The position numbers and the translations under genes were made by a program. A DNA stretch of 64,000 nt from contig JAJXZE010000001.1 in the NCBI GenBank assembly GCA_021780195.1, positions 1,603-65,602 of the forward strand. The letters run 5' to 3'. Below the pieces are notes generated by a model, which was given only the letters and a program-made list of their open reading frames with translations, had not been told where the DNA came from and ran no database searches. Shown here piece after piece: positions 17,224 through 59,220 of the stretch (positions are counted from its first letter, which is position 1; every line of letters starts with the position of its first letter). This stretch comes from a bacterium (lineage in GTDB: Bacteria; Patescibacteriota; Minisyncoccia; UBA6257; 2-01-FULL-56-20).

Positions 17224-17227
17224 CGGA

Positions 17228-17380
17228 GAATGCCGAAAGGGCTTTGAAGAGCCAGAATAAAATCCCCCAGCGGGGATTTTTTCTTGTCCCTCGGCCCATT
17301 TGCCGAAAACAAACGAATGTTTTCGGACCGTGCCAAACGGGCCTGCGGGATCCTCTTCAAGGCCCTTTCGGCATTCTTTT
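17228..17380 (+). other. nested stem-loop element directly 3' of tRNA-Ser: 24-bp long-range stem (17228..17251 with 17353..17376) enclosing two hairpins, followed by a T-run
   Basis: gaatgccgaaagggctttgaagag pairs with ctcttcaaggccctttcggcattc (one G-U); the interior holds the intrinsic terminator 17262..17282 and a 9-bp hairpin ccgaaaaca/tgttttcgg. Confidence 0.5.
17262..17282 (+). terminator. rho-independent terminator after tRNA-Ser (ATCCCC-cagc-GGGGAT plus T6)
   Basis: aaaatcccccagcggggatttttt. Confidence 0.6.
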
Positions 17381-17674
17381 GGCGGGTGCGATGACTCGAA
17401 CCGGAGCGCCGCCCCGGGTAGGAGGGAGCCGCGTTCTTACGCGGCGGGTCGGGAACCGAGGGTTCCCGAAACGGGGGTCGGGGCGGCGCGCAAGATTCGA
17501 GGAGCGAGCGTAGCGAGCGACGGAATCCTGTCGATTTATATAAGGGGGTTTCTGGCACGTTTTCCACAAAAACATGCCTTTTCTTTTGTCCACTTTCGGC
17601 AATTTGCCCCTCATTATTTAATAATATACAATGGAGAGGTGGAAATATCACCCTTCCATTAAACATATTGATAT

Positions 17675-18250
17675 ATGGCCACTGACAACCTTATTGCCAA
17701 ATTATACGAATCCCCCAAGACAATCCTGACCATTAAGGACATTGCTTTGATTTGGGGAGAAACAAACACCGTCAATCTTCTCACGAAGATAAAATACTAC
17801 GCGAAGCAAGGATCGCTGATTCGACTGACTCGTGGCGTATTTGCCAAAAACAAAGAGTATGATCTGAAAGAATTAGCAGGAAGTATCTATACTCCTTCTT
17901 ATATCAGTTTTGAAACCGTGCTCCGTGAGACCGGCATTATTTTTCAACATCACGATGCGATTTTTGTAGCCGGTCCCTATCCGATGACCAAGAAAATCGA
18001 CGATCACACGATCGTCTTTCGCAAACTGAAAGACAGCGTTTTATACAACGGGCTCGGCGTAAAAAAAGAAAAGAGCTATAGCATCGCTACGCCGGAGCGA
18101 GCATTCCTCGACACCATATATCTATCCCCTAAGTTTTATTTCGATAACTTGCGATCCATCAATTGGGATCAATGTTTTGAACTGGCAAAAATATACGATA
18201 ACAAACAATTGATCAAGCGGATAACTAAATATAAAAAACATGCTGAATAA
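17675..18250 (+). CDS. AbiEi-like antitoxin / transcriptional regulator (type IV TA, abortive infection)
   Basis: 191-aa protein in the AT-rich patch, placed directly upstream of and overlapping an AbiEii-type nucleotidyltransferase gene; wHTH-like N-terminus. The call rests on context and length plus weak pattern similarity. Confidence 0.6.
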   Translation: MATDNLIAKLYESPKTILTIKDIALIWGETNTVNLLTKIKYYAKQGSLIRLTRGVFAKNKEYDLKELAGSIYTPSYISFETVLRETGIIFQHHDAIFVAGPYPMTKKIDDHTIVFRKLKDSVLYNGLGVKKEKSYSIATPERAFLDTIYLSPKFYFDNLRSINWDQCFELAKIYDNKQLIKRITKYKKHAE

Positions 18251-18953
18251 AGAAAAACACCAACTCGTTATGGGGCAGATTTTGAGAGATATTTATTCCG
18301 ATACCTCCATATCTTCCCTGATCGGATTCAAGGGCGGCACCTGTGCTTATTTTTTCTATGGCCTGACAAGATTTTCTATAGACCTCGACTTCGACCTGTT
18401 TTCCACTGATGAAGCTACGCAAAAGCTCGTGTACGAAAGAATCGGTGGTATGTTGGAAAAATACGGAGAGGTCAAAGATAATTACATAAAACGAAACACC
18501 ATATTCTTCCTGCTTTCTTATGGCGATGCCGACCACAATGTGAAAATTGAAGTGAACATGAGAATTCTTATGCCGGATATCAAGGAGCACTACGAAGTAA
18601 AAGAATATCTGGGCATTTCTATGCTTGCGGGCAAAAAAGATTATCTTTTTGCGAGTAAGCTGGCCGCATTGACCACAAGAAGCGAAACGGCAATGCGTGA
18701 TGTGTATGACGTTTGGTTTTTTGGCACAAATCACTGGGATATAAACGTTGATGTGATCAAGGCAAGAACTGGCAAGACTATCAAAGAATACATGGCTGAT
18801 TGCCTTCCGGTTGTTGAGGCAATCAAAGATAATGAAATTTTGAGAGGATTGGCTGAGCTTTTGCCGGACGAAAAAGCAAAGGCGTGGGTAAAAACTCACT
18901 TAAGAAAAGAGGTTATCTTTCTGCTCAAAAATTACCAATCCGTATTAAAATGA
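18240..18953 (+). CDS. AbiEii/AbiGii-family nucleotidyltransferase toxin (DUF1814)
   Basis: FKGGTCAYFFYG (the GGT motif of the DUF1814 NTase family) and later D/E-rich motifs; 11-nt overlap with the upstream AbiEi-like gene. Confidence 0.7.
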   Translation: MLNKEKHQLVMGQILRDIYSDTSISSLIGFKGGTCAYFFYGLTRFSIDLDFDLFSTDEATQKLVYERIGGMLEKYGEVKDNYIKRNTIFFLLSYGDADHNVKIEVNMRILMPDIKEHYEVKEYLGISMLAGKKDYLFASKLAALTTRSETAMRDVYDVWFFGTNHWDINVDVIKARTGKTIKEYMADCLPVVEAIKDNEILRGLAELLPDEKAKAWVKTHLRKEVIFLLKNYQSVLK

Positions 18954-21532
18954 ACGGCCTTGCCAAAACCGACGCACTGAAATTCTCGCTCGCCGATCTT
19001 TATGCCAAGCTCGGCACGTCTGAACAGGGCCTTACCGAGAAAGAAGCCGGAAGCCGCCTCGCATCCTCGGGGCCGAACGTTCTCAAGCGAAAAAGCGTGA
19101 ACGCTCTGGACATCCTCGGCCGCCAATTGAAAAGTTCGCTCATTTATCTTCTCATTGGGGCAAGCCTCTTGGCGTACAGTATCCATGATTTTCGGGATGG
19201 CACGATCATCCTCGTCATTCTCCTGATCAACACCTCTCTCGGTTTTTATCAGGAATATAAATCAGAAAAAATCGTCGAAAAACTCTCACGTTTTATCACG
19301 AGGCAGGTCAGGGTAAGGCGCAATGGGCAGATTTCATTGGTTGACGAATCGCAAGTCGTCGTAGGCGACATCCTCATCGTCCGCGAGGGCGACATCGCTT
19401 CAGCTGACATGCGGCTCATCGATACCGAGGACCTGCGGGTCAACGAGTCGCAGCTTACGGGCGAGTCGGCGCCGGTCGCAAAACAGGATTCGACAGGTGC
19501 GGGCGCGAAACCGGAAAACATGCTTTTCACCGGCAGTGTCGTTGAGAAGGGCGAAGGCGTGGGGATTATTTATGCGACAGGAAATGATACGGAGCTTGGC
19601 GTGATCGCAAAGCTTTCCACGGAGACGAAGAAGCAGACGCAATACGAAAAATCGCTTCAGTCATTCAGCTCGTTCCTCATAAAAATTGTCCTAATCGGCC
19701 TTGCCATCATCTTTATCGCCAAATTTTTCCTCGCGCACGGCTCAGGCACCACCGACCTTCTTCTCTTCGTCATCGCGCTCGCCGTGGGAACGGTGCCGGA
19801 GGTGTTGCCCGTGATCGCAACGGTGACGCTTTCGGCGGGGGCGCTCAAGCTTGCCAAACAGCACGTTGTGGTGCGACGCCTGTCCGCCATGGAAGATTTC
19901 GGGAATATCAATCTTCTTTGCACCGACAAGACGGGTACCATCACCGAGAATAAAATGGTGGTAAAGAAAGTTACGGCAACTGACGAGAAGCTTTTTCAGG
20001 TTTTTGCCTATGCGGGTATCACGCCGCTCAAGGGGCGCAAGAAACGGACGCAGAATTCATATGACGAGGCCTTTTTACAGTACGCGTCCGAAGAAATAAA
20101 GAAGGAGGCGGGACATTTCAGGATCCTTAAAGAATTGCCGTTCGATCCCGAAGACCGGAGGAGCCGGTTGGTCGTTGAAAATACGGAGCACAAAAGATGC
20201 TATCTGCTTTCGATCGGCGCGCCGGAAACCTTATTGGCGATAAGCGGCGCAGGACATAAGGCGGAGTATCTCCGCGACATCGCCAAAGAGGGCGGAGAGG
20301 GATTGCACCATCTTGCCATTGCCTATAAAGAGATTTCATATTCAGACAACTTCGACATTTTGAAGAACGAACATGATCTGGCATTTCTTGGCTATGCGAG
20401 CATGGAAGATCCGCTGCGCCCCTCCGCAAAAAAAACCATCGAGCGCGCAGAACGTCTCTGCATCACGATAAAGATCCTTACGGGAGACGGCCGCGAAGTC
20501 GCCGAATACGTCGGGAAACAGATCGGACTTTTGAAGGAGGGCTCTAAGGTCTACCTTGGAGACGAACTGGAAGCGATGACACAGGACGAGTTCAAGGCCG
20601 CGGTCCAGCGCTCGACCATTTTTGCAAGAGTTTCCCCGACCCAGAAGTTCAATATCATCAAAGCCCTCAAGGAGACGAATGTCGTCGGATATCAGGGCGA
20701 CGGCATCAATGACGCTCCCGCCCTGAAGCTTGCGGACGTGGCGATCGCCGTGAATTCCGCAACCGACATCGCGAAAGAGAATGCGGACATCGTGCTTTTA
20801 AACAAAAGCCTGGAGGTCATCATCAACGGCATCAGGTATGGCCGCTCGATTTTCGTAAATATCAATAAATATATCCGTTATACGATGAGTAATAATTTCG
20901 GAGCGTTCGTCGGGCTTTCGACGCTGTATCTGCTCTCCGTCAATCTGCCGATTCTTCCGGTGCAGGTACTGCTCAATAACCTGTTCGGCGACATCCCGCT
21001 CATCATGGTCTCGACCGACACCGTCGAAGACGACGAGGTGGTACAGCCGGAACGACACAACATGCGTGAACTCATGTTCATATCGCTCATTCTCGGCGTT
21101 CCGACCGCGCTCTTCGAGATACTTTACTTCGCCACCATCAGGGCCCAAACAAGCTCGGTTGCGCAAACCAGCCTCTATGTCTTCCTTACGTTCCAGGCGC
21201 TCATCATCTTCTATGCCATTCGCAATAAAAAACATTTTTGGAAGGCAAAAATGTCGTCCGCCGCACTCAACATCTCATTTTTCCTGGCGTTCGTTCTTTC
21301 TCTCGGCATTATCTTCATCCCGCAGTTCCAGGCATGGTTCTCATTCGTACCGATCTCCGCAACGGCGATCGGCACCATTATGATACTCATGTTGCTCTAC
21401 TTCCTTGCCGTTGATTATGTGAAGGTTTGGTATTATCAGGGGACTCGGCTCGGCGGATTATATACCGAATCGGCAACGGCGGGGACCGCGGCGATGGGTG
21501 CTCATTCTGAAAAGCGGGGCGATCAATTTTAA
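18950..21532 (+). CDS. cation-transporting P-type ATPase (MgtA/Ca2+-ATPase-like, P-type II/III)
   Basis: CTDKTGTITENKM phosphorylation motif, GDGINDAPALKLADV hinge motif, about 10 TM segments; start at the internal ATG that overlaps the AbiEii stop (ATGA). Confidence 0.85.
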   Translation: MNGLAKTDALKFSLADLYAKLGTSEQGLTEKEAGSRLASSGPNVLKRKSVNALDILGRQLKSSLIYLLIGASLLAYSIHDFRDGTIILVILLINTSLGFYQEYKSEKIVEKLSRFITRQVRVRRNGQISLVDESQVVVGDILIVREGDIASADMRLIDTEDLRVNESQLTGESAPVAKQDSTGAGAKPENMLFTGSVVEKGEGVGIIYATGNDTELGVIAKLSTETKKQTQYEKSLQSFSSFLIKIVLIGLAIIFIAKFFLAHGSGTTDLLLFVIALAVGTVPEVLPVIATVTLSAGALKLAKQHVVVRRLSAMEDFGNINLLCTDKTGTITENKMVVKKVTATDEKLFQVFAYAGITPLKGRKKRTQNSYDEAFLQYASEEIKKEAGHFRILKELPFDPEDRRSRLVVENTEHKRCYLLSIGAPETLLAISGAGHKAEYLRDIAKEGGEGLHHLAIAYKEISYSDNFDILKNEHDLAFLGYASMEDPLRPSAKKTIERAERLCITIKILTGDGREVAEYVGKQIGLLKEGSKVYLGDELEAMTQDEFKAAVQRSTIFARVSPTQKFNIIKALKETNVVGYQGDGINDAPALKLADVAIAVNSATDIAKENADIVLLNKSLEVIINGIRYGRSIFVNINKYIRYTMSNNFGAFVGLSTLYLLSVNLPILPVQVLLNNLFGDIPLIMVSTDTVEDDEVVQPERHNMRELMFISLILGVPTALFEILYFATIRAQTSSVAQTSLYVFLTFQALIIFYAIRNKKHFWKAKMSSAALNISFFLAFVLSLGIIFIPQFQAWFSFVPISATAIGTIMILMLLYFLAVDYVKVWYYQGTRLGGLYTESATAGTAAMGAHSEKRGDQF

Positions 21533-56331: not shown

Positions 56332-56553
56332 ATGAAAAAGACCTTCCGCCAATATCCGGAAACCATGCTGATCATCCTTGCGGTGGTATTCCTCGCCGCG
56401 ATCATCGGCGTTTTCAGCTGGGGAATCGGGGTGGTGGTCGTGCAGGTGAACCGCGTCGAAGGTGCGGCGCAGCCGACGGCGAACCATATTGATTTCAATC
56501 TGTCCGGAGCGAAGGCGCTCGATCTGCGGGGGCTTGTCAAAACCCAGCCGTAG
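56332..56553 (+). CDS. hypothetical small membrane protein
   Basis: 73 aa, single TM (MLIILAVVFLAAIIGVFSWGIGVVVV). Confidence 0.3.
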   Translation: MKKTFRQYPETMLIILAVVFLAAIIGVFSWGIGVVVVQVNRVEGAAQPTANHIDFNLSGAKALDLRGLVKTQP

Positions 56554-56576
56554 GCCTTATCATTGACCGTGTTCCC

Positions 56577-56651
56577 GCGTCCTTAGCTCAGTGGTAGAGC
56601 GCTACAATGACACTGTAGAGGCCGGAGGTCCGATCCCTCCAGGACGCACCA
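56577..56651 (+). tRNA. tRNA-Val (anticodon GAC), CCA encoded
   Basis: GCGTCCT TA GCTC-AGTGGTA-GAGC G CTACA-ATGACAC-TGTAG AGGCC GGAGG-TCCGATC-CCTCC AGGACGC A CCA. Confidence 0.85.
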
Positions 56652-56787
56652 CGGCGAAGGCGCGCTCCTCGGCGGACGCGGTTCGCGCGTGCTCGCGCGG
56701 CCGCTCGCTCTCGGCGTTGCCGACCTCCTCGTTTTTATCGTTCTCCGGGACGCCTCCGAGATGCCGCCGAGGAGCACGCCTTCGCCG
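56652..56787. repeat. 136-bp element bounded by 24-bp inverted repeats (23/24 complementary) between tRNA-Val and tRNA-Ile; either a MITE-like insertion or an RNA processing stem
   Basis: cggcgaaggcgcgctcctcggcgg (56652..56675) pairs with ccgccgaggagcacgccttcgccg (56764..56787). Confidence 0.5.
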
Positions 56788-56860
56788 TGGTGTTTCGCGC
56801 GAGGATTGGTCCCTCCTTGCGATTTGCGATGCAGTGGTGTAAAAAAGAATAGTATTTTAG

Positions 56861-56932
56861 GCGCATGTAGTTCAGTGGTAGAACGCGTTCCTGATAAGAA
56901 CGAGGTCGAAGGTTCGATTCCTTCCATGCGCA
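56861..56932 (+). tRNA. tRNA-Ile (anticodon GAT)
   Basis: GCGCATG TA GTTC-AGTGGTA-GAAC G CGTTC-CTGATAA-GAACG AGGTC GAAGG-TTCGATT-CCTTC CATGCGC A. Confidence 0.85.
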
Positions 56933-56947
56933 CATATAAATTTCGTG

Positions 56948-56993
56948 TTTGACGCGTTATCCGTGTTGATATAATATGAACACATGTTCATAT
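56948..56993 (+). promoter_or_regulatory. promoter (TTTGAC, 16 nt, TATAAT) plus 9-2-9 inverted repeat ATATGAACA-ca-TGTTCATAT overlapping the arsR start (candidate ArsR/SmtB 12-2-12-type operator)
   Basis: tttgacgcgttatccgtgttgatataatatgaacacatgttcatat; the palindrome arms match the TGAA..TTCA type seen in CzrA/SmtB operators. Confidence 0.5.
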
Positions 56994-57304
56994 ATAAGCG
57001 GTGCGTCTGCAGGGTGGAACCCCACGACAAGATCGACCTCGCCGAGTTCAGTGGAATCGCGGAGCAAATGAAGTTCCTCTCGACGCCGAGCCGGATCGCC
57101 ATCCTTTCGCTTCTCTATAAGGCACCGCACTGCGTCTGCGATCTTGAAACGCATACCGGTTTGTCGCAAACGCTCCTTTCCCATCATTTGAAGGATCTTG
57201 CGAAAGGGGGATTGGTGGCGAGCGCAAAAGAAAAAACATTTGTGGAATATCGATTGACTACGAAGGGCCGAAAACTGGTGCGGATGATAGGGCAAATCAA
57301 GTGA
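56984..57304 (+). CDS. arsR: ArsR/SmtB-family transcriptional regulator
   Basis: PSRIAILSLLYKAPHCVCDLETHTGLSQTLLSHHLKDLAKGGLV (wHTH with CVC metal-sensing motif). Confidence 0.75.
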   Translation: MFIYKRCVCRVEPHDKIDLAEFSGIAEQMKFLSTPSRIAILSLLYKAPHCVCDLETHTGLSQTLLSHHLKDLAKGGLVASAKEKTFVEYRLTTKGRKLVRMIGQIK

Positions 57305-58512
57305 AAATAGGACCCATGCCTTCCAAAAAGTCATTTTCGACCCTCATGAAAAGCGCTTTTTATATTGGCGTCATCGGGTATGGCGGCCCGGCGATCCTGG
57401 CGCAAATGAAGCGGATATTCGTCAACGAACATGGATATCTGTCGGAACGGGAATTTATGGACGGCCTGGGGCTCGCGCAGGTCCTCCCGGGCTCGCAGGG
57501 CACAAGTATGATGACCTATGTCGGATACAAGCTCTACCGTTTTTGGGGAGGCGTTGTTGTTCCTTTTGTCTTTATTGCCCCGTCCATCGCGCTGATCATT
57601 TTCCTTTCATGGGCGTACTTCAGCTTCGGCAATATTCATGCGGTGAAGTCCGTTTTTATGGGACTCGGCGCGGTCGTGGTTGCACTGCTTCTTGACGCTA
57701 CCTTCAAACTCGGAAAAACCGTCTTTAAGGATCTTGACCGAAACGATCTTAAGGGAGCGCTCATTGCCGCCGGTGCATTCATCGCCGTCTTCTTCTTCAA
57801 TATGAACGCGATTTATATTATTTTACTCTCCGCGCTTCTTGGTTTCGTTTTTTATTTCTCTACCAAAGAATTTGCATCGGAAAAAATGCCGTCCAGAGCC
57901 GCTTCCGGTAATCCCGTCGTGAGGCTGCGGTTCAAGAAGAAAGATTTTCTGCCGATCGGGCTTTTGCTGATAGCCATCTCGTCCGTTTTTTTCTTCCCTC
58001 TCTTCGAAAAGATATTCACCACGTTCTTTCAGGTCGGTGTTTTCACGTTCGGCGGCGGTTACACGGCAGTAGCTTTGATCCAGCGGCTCACGGTGGATGG
58101 TATGCACTGGATCACTCTTCCGCAATTTCGGGATGGCATCGCGCTCGGACAGATAACGCCGGGACCAGTGCTGGAAACCGCGACATTCATCGGGTATCAC
58201 GTTGCCGGGATCGCCGGCGCCCTTGTCGCAACCTCCGCTATTTTTTTGCCTTCCGTGCTCGCCATGCTCCTCGTGATTGATATGCATGAAAAGGTGAGGA
58301 ATCTGAAGCTCGTGAAGGTGCTGATCAAAGGTATCCTTTCCGGCTTTATCGGGTTGCTCGTCGCCGTCACGCTGCAATTTGCGACGAAATCACTCCTTGA
58401 TTGGCAGACCTGGGCGATCTTCCTTGCCGCGGTTGCGTTTATTTCCTATTTCAAAAAAGAGCCGATCTGGGCGATTGTGGGCGGCGTTGCGGTATCATTT
58501 TTCATATTCTGA
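57301..58512 (+). CDS. chrA: chromate efflux transporter ChrA
   Basis: Tandem CHR domains: GYGGPAILAQMKRIFVNEHGYLSEREFMDGLGLAQVLPGSQGTSMMTYVGY and TFGGGYTAVALIQRLTVDGMHWITLPQFRDGIALGQITPGPVLETATFIGY. Confidence 0.85.
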   Translation: MKIGPMPSKKSFSTLMKSAFYIGVIGYGGPAILAQMKRIFVNEHGYLSEREFMDGLGLAQVLPGSQGTSMMTYVGYKLYRFWGGVVVPFVFIAPSIALIIFLSWAYFSFGNIHAVKSVFMGLGAVVVALLLDATFKLGKTVFKDLDRNDLKGALIAAGAFIAVFFFNMNAIYIILLSALLGFVFYFSTKEFASEKMPSRAASGNPVVRLRFKKKDFLPIGLLLIAISSVFFFPLFEKIFTTFFQVGVFTFGGGYTAVALIQRLTVDGMHWITLPQFRDGIALGQITPGPVLETATFIGYHVAGIAGALVATSAIFLPSVLAMLLVIDMHEKVRNLKLVKVLIKGILSGFIGLLVAVTLQFATKSLLDWQTWAIFLAAVAFISYFKKEPIWAIVGGVAVSFFIF

Positions 58513-58611
58513 CCATGACGAGGAAAGCAAAACATATTTTCATCCGTATACCACCATAATCGGCCGGGAATTCGACGGCGGTCTCTTCGAAATAAATTTT
58601 AAAAAATTACC

Positions 58612-59220
58612 ATGATAAATAGCAAAGAGTATTACGAAGCAGGACTCGCGTTCCACGGGCACAAATGTCCCGCCATGCCGCTCGGTTTGCGGACGGGCGA
58701 AGCGGCCATGAACACATTGGGCGTTTCCCGCGCGAAGGACGGCGAGCTTGTCGCCATCCTTGAGCTCGGAGAAAATCATTGCGCGACATGCTTTGCGGAC
58801 GGCGTGCAGATGATCACGGGCTGTACATTCGGAAAGGGCAATATCTCCAAAACAAACCAGGGGAAATGGGGACTCACGCTCATTAACAAGAAATCCGGTA
58901 AAGCGGTGCGGGTCGTGCCGAAGACGGAAATAATGATGGCGAGCAAGCAGTCAGATTTTATGCAAAAATACCGCTCCAAAGGAGTGCCGGCGAGCGAGGT
59001 GCCCGAAGAGGTCGTTGCGCCGCTCATTAAAAAGGTGATGGAGGCGCCCTGCGATATTCTCGTCACGGTTGGTCCGGTGGTGACATACGACCTTAAAGAA
59101 TCGAAGCATAGCTATAACGGGTTTGCCTGTGAGGAATGCGGCGAAATGACCGTTATGGAATATGGAAGGATCAAGGGGGACAAAAAGGTCTGCATGGCGT
59201 GCGCGGATAAAGTGTTATAA
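58612..59220 (+). CDS. FmdE-family protein (formylmethanofuran dehydrogenase subunit E-like, C-terminal zinc ribbon)
   Basis: FHGHKCPAMPLGLRTGEAAMN FmdE motif and C-terminal CEECGEM...CMACADK. Confidence 0.65.
   Translation: MINSKEYYEAGLAFHGHKCPAMPLGLRTGEAAMNTLGVSRAKDGELVAILELGENHCATCFADGVQMITGCTFGKGNISKTNQGKWGLTLINKKSGKAVRVVPKTEIMMASKQSDFMQKYRSKGVPASEVPEEVVAPLIKKVMEAPCDILVTVGPVVTYDLKESKHSYNGFACEECGEMTVMEYGRIKGDKKVCMACADKVL

What the first reader, a model, noticed from the sequence alone, without database searches (positions are those of the whole stretch)
56652..56787. 136-bp inverted-repeat-bounded element between tRNA-Val and tRNA-Ile (MITE-like insertion or processing stem)
Two 24-nt arms are complementary at 23 of 24 positions and enclose about 88 nt of GC-rich sequence with small internal hairpins. 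The element starts directly after the encoded CCA of tRNA-Val.

tRNA-Ile(GAT) usually sits in rRNA spacers, but no rRNA is present here. The long stem resembles RNase III processing helices, which would suggest a relic of an rRNA-operon spacer.

Alternatively, terminal inverted repeats of this length are typical of miniature inverted-repeat transposable elements.

Together with the element after tRNA-Ser(GGA), this suggests tRNA 3' flanks in this genome recurrently carry long-stem elements.
Basis: partly seen in the sequence, partly recalled or inferred. Interest (0 to 1): 0.5.

Follow-up and report, generated by a model that had tools for sequence, protein, structure and literature searches.

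The report
Structured hairpin element behind tRNA genes
The inverted repeat after tRNA-Val is real and is one copy of a previously uncatalogued family of folded three-armed hairpin elements that sit directly behind tRNA genes in one group of uncultivated ultra-small bacteria; it probably marks or processes the end of the tRNA transcript.

Summary
The arms at 56652-56675 and 56764-56787 pair at 23 of 24 positions. Pairing continues into the tRNA end (CACCA 56647-51 with TGGTG 56788-92).

It is not a classical MITE and not an rRNA-spacer relic. It is one copy of a family of 110-190 nt three-way-junction hairpins. Each has a long, near-perfect closing stem whose sequence varies between copies, a conserved core, and a variable tip.

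I found about 13 copies in a Patescibacteria clade. There were none in 945 kb of other genomes and none in Rfam 15. Ten of the 13 lie directly 3' of a tRNA (Val, Ile, Leu, Ser), all in the tRNA's orientation.

The hairpin after tRNA-Ser(GGA) at 17225-17379 belongs to the same family, because bridging copies match both covariance models.

Covariation is strong: 23 of 30 and 24 of 34 pairs show changes on both sides, and 0 of 500 shuffles reach the observed values. G-U outnumbers A-C 19 to 4 on the tRNA strand, which points to an RNA-level structure.

In 30 of 53 relatives the Val-Ile spacer is at most 60 nt. Here it holds the element plus a conserved promoter for tRNA-Ile.

Most likely it is a co-transcribed 3'-trailer module that ends or processes the transcript, and that also copies itself within genomes. 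The function is inferred, not shown.

The parts
56534..56563 (+). Promoter-like site upstream of tRNA-Val (TTGTCA, 18 nt, TATCAT)
   Evidence: Consensus scan, 10 of 12 matches. This is a pattern match only.
56577..56651 (+). tRNA-Val(GAC) with encoded CCA (56649-56651). Its last 5 nt belong to the closing stem.
   Evidence: ARAGORN. Rfam tRNA model, 66.3 bits.
56647..56675 (+). P1 5' arm (closing stem), 29 nt
   Evidence: the repeat finder and outward extension of the pairing.
56678..56704 (+). Hairpin A (GCGGT.TCGCGCG-TGCT-CGCGCG.GCCGC), preceded by the junction AC at 56676-56677
   Evidence: Fold. Model R1 helix 2: 8 of 11 pairs change on both sides across 9 copies.
56708..56760 (+). P2. Pairs: CTC 56708-10 with GAG 56758-60, and GGCG 56713-16 with CGCC 56751-54. 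Conserved internal loop TC (56711-12) opposite TCC (56755-57). Variable tip at 56717-56750.
   Evidence: Homology-based structure in A3/A4. Helices 3 and 4 are 100% paired and 4 of 7 pairs change on both sides.
56764..56792 (+). P1 3' arm, 29 nt. Its last 5 nt (TGGTG) pair with the CACCA end of the tRNA.
56817..56845 (+). Inferred promoter of tRNA-Ile: TTGCGA, 17 nt, TAAAAA
   Evidence: Read from the sequence. The motif CTTGCrG - about 17 nt - TAAAAAAGAAG recurs before tRNA-Ile in L125, L131, L091, L118, L155 and L111, all loci with long spacers. The strict scan did not call it.
56861..56933 (+). tRNA-Ile(GAT)
   Evidence: ARAGORN and Rfam, 76 bits.
17225..17379 (+). Second family member, directly behind tRNA-Ser(GGA). 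P1 is 17225-17251 with 17353-17379. Its hairpin A (17259-17280) looks like a canonical intrinsic terminator.
   Evidence: Model R2, 147 bits. Terminator scan on both strands. Fold.

Best explanation
The repeat is the closing stem and core of one copy of a lineage-specific family of three-way-junction hairpin elements.

Family architecture:
- P1: 19-41 bp, nearly perfect, with a sequence that differs between copies.
- Junction AC, then hairpin A.
- P2: a short helix with a conserved internal loop, UC opposite U(C/G)C.
- A variable tip, then the return strand of P1.

Most copies lie immediately 3' of a tRNA gene in the tRNA's orientation. P1 starts at, or a few nucleotides inside, the tRNA 3' end.

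Shown:
- The family exists and its structure covaries.
- It is confined, among the sequences searched, to one Patescibacteria clade.
- Two diverged copies are in this window.
- In most relatives the Val-Ile spacer is tiny.

Inferred mechanism:
1. The element is transcribed as the 3' trailer of tRNA-Val.
2. P1 zips up from the CCA end into a 29-30 bp RNA helix capped by the junction.
3. This rod stops or blocks the transcript before tRNA-Ile, which is expressed from its own promoter at 56817-56845.
4. The helix offers a double-stranded entry site for an endonuclease of the RNase III type, after which trimming would yield the tRNA 3' end.
5. The conserved junction would be the handle a protein recognises.

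At the DNA level the family copies itself within genomes and turns up at new intergenic sites. It therefore behaves like a small non-autonomous palindromic repeat, comparable to Correia or ERIC elements.

The arms may also be kept complementary, in part, by template-switch homogenisation of inverted repeats.

My probabilities: family membership and fold about 0.9; expanded state derived from a short spacer about 0.65; transcript-end or processing role about 0.4.
For: **Family and fold**
- Model R1, built from 4 copies, finds 11 matches with E < 0.01 in 569 kb of the clade. It finds none with E <= 1 in 945 kb of unrelated genomes.
- On 9 copies, 93.8% of cells pair against 69.7% in shuffles. 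23 of 30 pairs change on both sides. 0 of 500 shuffles reach the observed values. Slid controls pair at 39-52%.
- Model R2, built from the tRNA-Ser type, also hits the R1 members L133, L131 and L120. On 6 copies, 98% of cells pair and 24 of 34 pairs change on both sides.

**RNA on the tRNA strand**
- G-U 19 against A-C 4 in model pairs over 13 copies, binomial p = 0.0013.
- All 10 tRNA-linked copies are in the tRNA's orientation.

**Coupling to the tRNA 3' end**
- In 6 of 10 tRNA-linked copies P1 overlaps the tRNA end by 4-8 nt.
- The far arm follows the local tRNA end: TGGTGCGC where CCA is encoded, TGTGCG where it is not.

**Selection on the core**
- Window against L125: upstream 55%, P1 arms 62% and 50%, core 84%, tRNA 100% identical, while DprA is only 61% identical.

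**Spacer state and promoter**
- Spacers of 3, 17 and 47 nt in relatives. 30 of 53 distinct loci have at most 60 nt.
- A conserved promoter-like motif precedes tRNA-Ile wherever the spacer is long.

**Copying within genomes**
- L163 carries two copies whose hairpin A regions are nearly identical, about 93% by my hand count.
- Copies lie behind four different tRNA species and between protein genes.

**Terminator link**
- Hairpin A of the tRNA-Ser type is terminator-like on both strands.
Against: - There are no expression data, so transcription through the 3' arm is assumed.
- The window copy lacks a U tract after P1 (GTGGTGTTTCGCG). The terminator scan finds nothing there. Only some members have T-rich tails.
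- In the tRNA-Ser type, hairpin A is itself a terminator. If it is efficient, the 3' arm would seldom be transcribed and P1 could not form in RNA.
- Two copies (L155, L120) lie antisense to the flanking protein genes.
- 19-41 bp of near-perfect pairing is more typical of DNA palindromes than of functional RNAs. Template switching could maintain it without selection (PMC8604942, PMC7202029).
- Presence is patchy among close relatives (L109 against L142 and L144; L131 against L133, L084 and L112). That is unexpected for an essential processing signal.
- The G-U excess could reflect strand-biased mutation. The alignments were also fitted to the models.
Confidence: 0.45

Rival explanations
1. It is a stand-alone structured small RNA or RNA-protein particle. 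The tRNA supplies the promoter, and tRNA 3' processing (RNase Z type) creates the small RNA's 5' end. P1 protects both ends, and the conserved junction carries a function acting elsewhere in the cell.
For: - The core is conserved, with covariation and conserved unpaired bases.
- G-U excess on the tRNA strand.
- P1 starts exactly at the tRNA end.
- This arrangement would resemble known tRNA-linked small RNAs (my own knowledge).
Against: - There are several diverged copies per genome, and presence is patchy among close relatives.
- The tRNA-Ser-type copies contain a terminator before the 3' arm.
- Two copies are antisense to the local genes.
- No Rfam family matches.
Confidence: 0.2
2. It is purely selfish DNA. 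On this view it is a foldback or MITE-like palindromic element moved by an unidentified enzyme. That enzyme would recognise the folded core in single-stranded DNA. The element lands in or next to hairpins behind tRNA genes. The arms stay perfect through template switching, and there is no role in RNA.
For: - Copies occur at four tRNA species and at sites between protein genes. Presence is patchy. There are near-identical paralogous cores in L163.
- Different hairpin contents sit inside the same outer stem in sister lineages. One related hairpin has its loop inverted, as arm-to-arm switching predicts (PMC8604942).
Against: - No conserved termini and no clear direct target duplication. No transposase is seen next to any copy.
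- G-U 19 against A-C 4 favours RNA-level constraint.
- The orientation is uniform behind tRNAs.
- No match in plasmids, phages or viral contigs.
Confidence: 0.2
3. It is a relic of an rRNA-operon spacer whose long stem was an RNase III processing helix.
For: tRNA-Ile(GAT) often lies in rRNA spacers (my own knowledge). Long stems resemble processing helices.
Against: - No rRNA is in the window.
- The Val-Ile pair lies behind dprA and two small genes in dozens of relatives, usually 0-60 nt apart, with no rRNA.
- The helix encloses an 88-nt core, not a mature RNA.
Confidence: 0.03
4. It is an ordinary terminator hairpin or a chance palindrome in GC-rich DNA.
For: The stem is GC-rich. Some family members have A and T tracts flanking P1.
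Against: - z = -6.15 and no chance matches of the arm.
- The branched core is conserved across genomes whose DprA is about 55-61% identical.
- This copy has no U tract.
Confidence: 0.03

Closest known systems
Correia repeat-enclosed elements (CREE) of Neisseria
   Same: About 100-150 bp and non-coding. An inverted repeat encloses a conserved core. Co-transcribed with neighbouring genes. The RNA hairpin is bound or cut by RNase III. The ends can create promoters (PMC2649163). In L155 and L120 the end of P1 overlaps a TATAAT box of the next gene.
   Different: CREE arms are conserved 26-bp terminal repeats with a TA target duplication, in hundreds of copies. Here the arms differ between copies and no direct duplication is seen. 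Copy number looks low. The core is a branched junction tied to tRNA 3' ends.
Other small bacterial palindromic repeats (ERIC, RUP, BOX, REP/REPIN) and prokaryotic MITEs
   Same: Short, intergenic, hairpin-forming, transcribed within operons, and present at several loci (PMC2229807, PMC10969869).
   Different: Those families are defined by conserved sequence along the arms. This one keeps the junction and lets the arms drift.
Intrinsic (rho-independent) terminators, including bidirectional ones
   Same: A hairpin directly after a highly expressed gene. In several members A-rich and T-rich tracts flank the stem. Hairpin A of the tRNA-Ser type is a textbook terminator.
   Different: The window copy has no U tract. 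Terminators have no conserved branched core shared across loci and genomes.
Retron non-coding RNA (architecture only)
   Same: A closing stem made of variable inverted repeats (a1/a2) that encloses two structured hairpin regions.
   Different: No reverse transcriptase gene lies next to any copy. No conserved branching G was identified.
Quasipalindrome correction by template switching
   Same: It explains near-perfect arms that change together and the inversion of the enclosed loop (PMC7202029, PMC8604942, PMC5941160).
   Different: It is a mutational process, not an element. It does not explain the conserved core or the G-U excess.

Membership tests
Classical MITE | Terminal inverted repeats conserved in sequence among copies | tested here: not met
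   P1 arms differ between copies. Window against L125 is 62% and 50% identical, and other copies are unalignable. Only the innermost ~10 bp show a weak consensus.
Classical MITE | Direct target-site duplication flanking the element | tested here: not met
   The flanks are CACCA and TGGTG, which are inverted, not direct. A possible GAAAG repeat in L109 against the empty site in L142 is ambiguous.
Classical MITE | Many copies per genome and a related autonomous element | tested here: inconclusive
   There are two diverged copies in 64 kb and two in L163. The whole genome was not available. No transposase was seen beside any copy.
Classical MITE | Small and non-coding | tested here: met
   110-190 nt. 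Length varies between copies by amounts that do not preserve a reading frame.
rRNA-operon processing stem | The helix is formed by sequences that flank an rRNA (or lie in an rRNA operon) | tested here: not met
   No rRNA is in the window. The conserved gene order in relatives contains no rRNA.
rRNA-operon processing stem | Cleavage by RNase III | not testable with these tools
   This needs transcript-end mapping or an enzyme assay.
Intrinsic terminator | GC-rich hairpin followed at once by a U tract | tested here: not met
   For the Val copy the scan finds no terminator, and the tail is GTGGTGTTTCGCG. The feature is met by hairpin A of the tRNA-Ser copy.
Any Rfam 15 family | Match to a curated covariance model | tested here: not met
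   Only tRNAs score, both at gathering thresholds and at E <= 10 in the window, and at E <= 1 in 7 member loci.
tRNA-trailer three-way-junction element (family defined here) | P1, AC junction, hairpin A, P2 with the UC / U(C/G)C loop, variable tip | tested here: met
   The window copy scores 119.5 bits with R1, but it was one of the four sequences used to build R1. Independent copies score 29-63 bits.
tRNA-trailer three-way-junction element (family defined here) | Directly 3' of a tRNA, in the tRNA's orientation, with P1 reaching the tRNA end | tested here: met
   Offset -6 relative to the end of tRNA-Val. 10 of 13 copies are tRNA-linked and all 10 are in the tRNA's orientation.
Integrative island att remnant | Direct repeat of the tRNA 3' end at the far side of the inserted DNA | tested here: not met
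   No second copy of the 3' ends of tRNA-Ile or tRNA-Ser(GGA) is in the window.

The most novel reading that the evidence does not exclude
The junction is a new cis-acting RNA device dedicated to making tRNA 3' ends in these reduced bacteria. It could be a self-cleaving ribozyme, or the recognition handle of a clade-specific nuclease or termination factor. In either case it would have been copied behind several tRNA genes.
Probability: 0.12. Interest if true: 0.8.

Novelty: new variant of a known kind. Interest (0 to 1): 0.48.

Why it matters
Patescibacteria have tiny genomes, and little is known about how they end and process transcripts. This family has three notable properties:
- It is a conserved, strongly covarying RNA fold.
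- It is attached to tRNA 3' ends.
- It is absent from Rfam.

That gives RNA-motif and RNA-processing researchers a concrete candidate to test.

It is also an unusual kind of palindromic repeat, because the core is kept while the arms drift. That makes it a natural case for separating two explanations of complementary arms: selection on RNA pairing, and DNA-level homogenisation of inverted repeats.

If it proves to be only a selfish repeat with terminator-like side effects, it is a modest addition to a known class.

Tried and rejected
- **TopA-based search of GTDB representative genomes.** The closest relative is only 63% identical and the tRNA-Val/Ile gene order is not conserved, so it was useless for the spacer.
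- **Look-ups of the two closest hyp175 homologues (P0002, P0003).** One returned no DNA and the other contig ended before the tRNA.
- **Viral-contig scans with a core pattern.** About 100 hits each, which I estimate is what chance would give. R1 kept only one match, and it has no closing stem and appears to lie in coding sequence.
- **BLAST of the spacer against plasmids and phages.** No match.
- **Rfam at permissive thresholds.** Nothing.
- **Literature searches** for tRNA-linked hairpins in Patescibacteria/CPR. Nothing.
- **Retrovirus-like primer-binding site.** The TGGTG arm is complementary to the CCA end. I rejected this idea because in relatives without encoded CCA the arm matches the genomic flank (TGTGCG...), not the mature CCA end.
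- **Scar of an integrated island.** No direct repeat of the tRNA ends.
- **The 49-nt extension of the repeat into the T arm.** I judged it weak (15 of 25 by hand count). It is probably similarity between two hairpins with similar stems, or a remnant of the RNA-like sequence seen after the element in L131.
- **Small-peptide gene.** Rejected because copy lengths vary out of frame.

Full report
**1. The observation**

The arms 56652-56675 and 56764-56787 are complementary at 23 of 24 positions, with 88 nt between them. The arm pattern never matched in 100 shuffles of the window. The 136 nt fold at -88.2 kcal/mol, z = -6.15.

ARAGORN places tRNA-Val(GAC) at 56577-56651 with an encoded CCA, and tRNA-Ile(GAT) at 56861-56933. 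So the element does begin right after the CCA.

Pairing continues outward. CACCA (56647-51) pairs with TGGTG (56788-92), giving a 29-30 bp stem that includes the tRNA end.

Across the whole window, this and the repeat behind tRNA-Ser(GGA) are the two strongest inverted repeats. The other six tRNAs have nothing comparable.

The spacer is 100% identical in a separate NCBI MAG contig (L001/L002).

**2. Source and relatives**

The flanking proteins occur in MAG GCA_027352685.1.

The closest TopA among GTDB species representatives is 63% identical, in records labelled Saccharibacteria, Parcubacteria or Patescibacteria. The source is therefore a poorly sampled Patescibacteria lineage.

Homologues of the 175-aa protein next to tRNA-Val led to loci with the same order: dprA, hyp175, hyp73, tRNA-Val.

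A metagenome scan for the unusual 3' half of this tRNA-Val gave 92 loci. Almost all of them share that gene order.

All relatives are distant. hyp175 is at most 60% identical and DprA 53-61%. Unconstrained DNA should therefore be close to saturated.

**3. The Val-Ile spacer**

- tRNA-Ile follows tRNA-Val after 3 nt in L087 and 17 nt in L085.
- In 53 distinct Val-Ile pairs the gap runs from 0 to over 1000 nt. 30 of them are at most 60 nt.
- The window's 209 nt is one of the expanded states.
- L084 carries a different insertion at the same place: 746 nt with a 230-aa helix-turn-helix ORF.
- CCA is not encoded in several relatives.
- No rRNA is in the window or in this conserved neighbourhood.

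The rRNA-spacer idea therefore fails.

**4. A family with a conserved core and drifting arms**

L125 and L131 carry, at the same site, elements whose cores match the window's but whose arms differ while still pairing.

All copies fold the same way:
- a long P1;
- the junction AC;
- hairpin A;
- a 3-bp helix;
- an internal loop, TC opposite T(C/G)C;
- a 4-5 bp GC helix;
- a variable tip, often carrying ACCAAGC.

A covariance model built from four copies (R1) found further members in 569 kb of this clade:

| Locus | Position |
|---|---|
| L109, L114 (= L119), L163 | behind tRNA-Ile |
| L133 | behind tRNA-Leu(CAA) |
| L155, L120, L158 | between protein genes |

R1 found none with E <= 1 in 945 kb of unrelated genomes.

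On nine copies, 93.8% of cells pair against 69.7% in shuffles. 23 of 30 pairs change on both sides. 0 of 500 shuffles reach the observed values. Slid controls pair at 39-52%.

**5. The tRNA-Ser(GGA) element is the same family**

The element at 17225-17379 has homologues behind tRNA-Ile in L085 and L160.

A model of this type (R2) also hits the R1 members L133 (67 bits), L131 (61 bits) and L120 (40 bits). These copies bridge the two types.

On six copies, 98% of cells pair and 24 of 34 pairs change on both sides, again with 0 of 500 shuffles.

In this type, hairpin A (AAAATCCCC-cagc-GGGGATTTT, followed by TTCTT) is terminator-like on both strands.

**6. RNA or DNA?**

Over 13 non-redundant copies the non-Watson-Crick cells are G-U 19 and A-C 4 on the tRNA strand (p = 0.0013). 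This favours constraint on an RNA made in the tRNA's direction.

Two caveats apply. The cells are not fully independent, and the alignments were fitted to the models.

All ten tRNA-linked copies are in the tRNA's orientation.

Against a purely RNA view:
- P1 is 19-41 bp and almost perfect.
- Two copies lie antisense to the neighbouring protein genes, and the end of P1 overlaps a TATAAT box of the next gene.
- Template switching between inverted-repeat arms is known to homogenise arms and to invert the enclosed spacer (PMC8604942, PMC7202029). A related simple hairpin shows exactly such a loop inversion, L144/L100 against L159.

**7. How the arms evolve**

| Segment, window vs L125 | Identity |
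|---|---|
| 60 nt upstream | 55% |
| tRNA-Val | 100% |
| P1 5' arm | 62% |
| core | 84% |
| P1 3' arm | 50% |
| right flank | 73% |

The arms are homologous. They have diverged about as fast as unconstrained DNA, yet each copy stays paired.

**8. Coupling to the tRNA end**

In 6 of 10 tRNA-linked copies, P1 overlaps the last 4-8 nt of the tRNA.

In clade B the far arm follows the local tRNA end:
- GCGCACCATAAG... pairs with ...CTTATGGTGCGC where CCA is encoded.
- CGCACAAAAC... pairs with ...GTTTTGTGCG where it is not.

This rules out a primer-binding-site reading, which would require complementarity to the mature CCA end.

Sister lineages with about 80% identical DprA differ at this one site. 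L109 has the junction element. L144 and L100 have a simple hairpin with a conserved 19-nt loop inside the same outer stem. L142 has no hairpin.

**9. Mobility**

- The family sits behind four tRNA species and at non-tRNA sites.
- It is patchy among close relatives. L131 has it at the Val site, but its nearest relatives L133, L084 and L112 do not.
- L163 has two copies with nearly identical hairpin A regions, about 93% by my hand count.
- No conserved termini, no clear direct duplication, and no adjacent transposase were found.
- Nothing matched in plasmids, phages or viral contigs.

**10. Function (inferred)**

Loci with a long spacer share a layout: tRNA-Val, then a long hairpin, then a conserved promoter-like motif (CTTGCrG, about 17 nt, TAAAAAAGAAG), then tRNA-Ile. 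In the window that motif is at 56817-56845.

This suggests that the hairpin separates two transcription units that are fused in the short-spacer relatives.

The window copy lacks a U tract. A canonical intrinsic terminator is therefore not established for it. A block to read-through, or a double-stranded processing site, is the more cautious reading.

I rank the readings as follows: co-transcribed end/processing module about 0.45; stand-alone small RNA 0.2; purely selfish DNA 0.2; rRNA relic or chance about 0.03 each.

**11. Comparison with known systems**

The nearest analogues are Correia elements. They have an inverted repeat plus a conserved core, RNase III binding, and promoters at their ends (PMC2649163). 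Other small palindromic repeats are also close (PMC2229807, PMC10969869).

The defining MITE features, conserved termini and a direct duplication, were tested and not met. No Rfam family matches.

I class it as a new variant of a known kind. The fold is well supported, the function is unproven, and the interest is moderate.

Noticed in passing
window 17392-17512 (+); L131 10812-10932: A conserved multi-helix, RNA-like sequence of about 120 nt lies directly after the tRNA-Ser element. Its homologue lies directly after the Val-site element in L131 (76% identity). RNAalifold predicts 32 pairs, 5 of them with changes on both sides. No Rfam hit, even at E <= 10. Its identity is unknown.
   Followed up: partly
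window 56625-56641 (T arm of tRNA-Val): The T loop reads UCCGAUC. It has C at position 55, where U (pseudouridine 55) is nearly universal. The same T arm occurs in about 90 metagenome loci of this clade.
   Followed up: no
window 31680-31753: ARAGORN calls a tRNA-Ala(TGC) here, but the Rfam tRNA model does not reach its gathering score. It may be atypical or a pseudogene.
   Followed up: no
L144, L100, L159; L118, L155; L091, L148 (3' flanks of tRNA-Val/Ile): Other long, perfect hairpins lie behind these tRNAs, with conserved loops and variable stems. The loops are TCCAGGCAGATGACCGTTC (inverted in L159), TGCTGCGAAGACGCAAC and TCGTGATAAGAATAATT. Hairpins that keep a constant tip while the stems drift seem to be a general habit of the clade.
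   Followed up: partly
L084 5506-6251: A 746-nt AT-rich insertion sits in the same Val-Ile spacer. It carries a 230-aa ORF with a weak HTH_23 match.
   Followed up: partly
L120, L132, L138, L179, L106 (between tRNA-Val and tRNA-Ile): Interrupted tRNA-Ile-like sequences, plus a conserved stretch ATGGTTCGCTCGTCGAAAACAAAC just before the called tRNA-Ile. This may be an intron or a leader.
   Followed up: no
window 17600-19000 and 56984-59220: Lower-GC accessory genes lie next to both element-bearing tRNAs: an AbiEii toxin (18240-18953), and ArsR, a chromate transporter and FmdE. No direct-repeat att remnants were found.
   Followed up: partly
L155 3900-3925; L120 about 296-312: In the two copies that lie between protein genes, the outer end of P1 overlaps a TATAAT box placed 7-10 nt before the ATG of the next gene. 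The element may therefore supply or adjoin a promoter.
   Followed up: no
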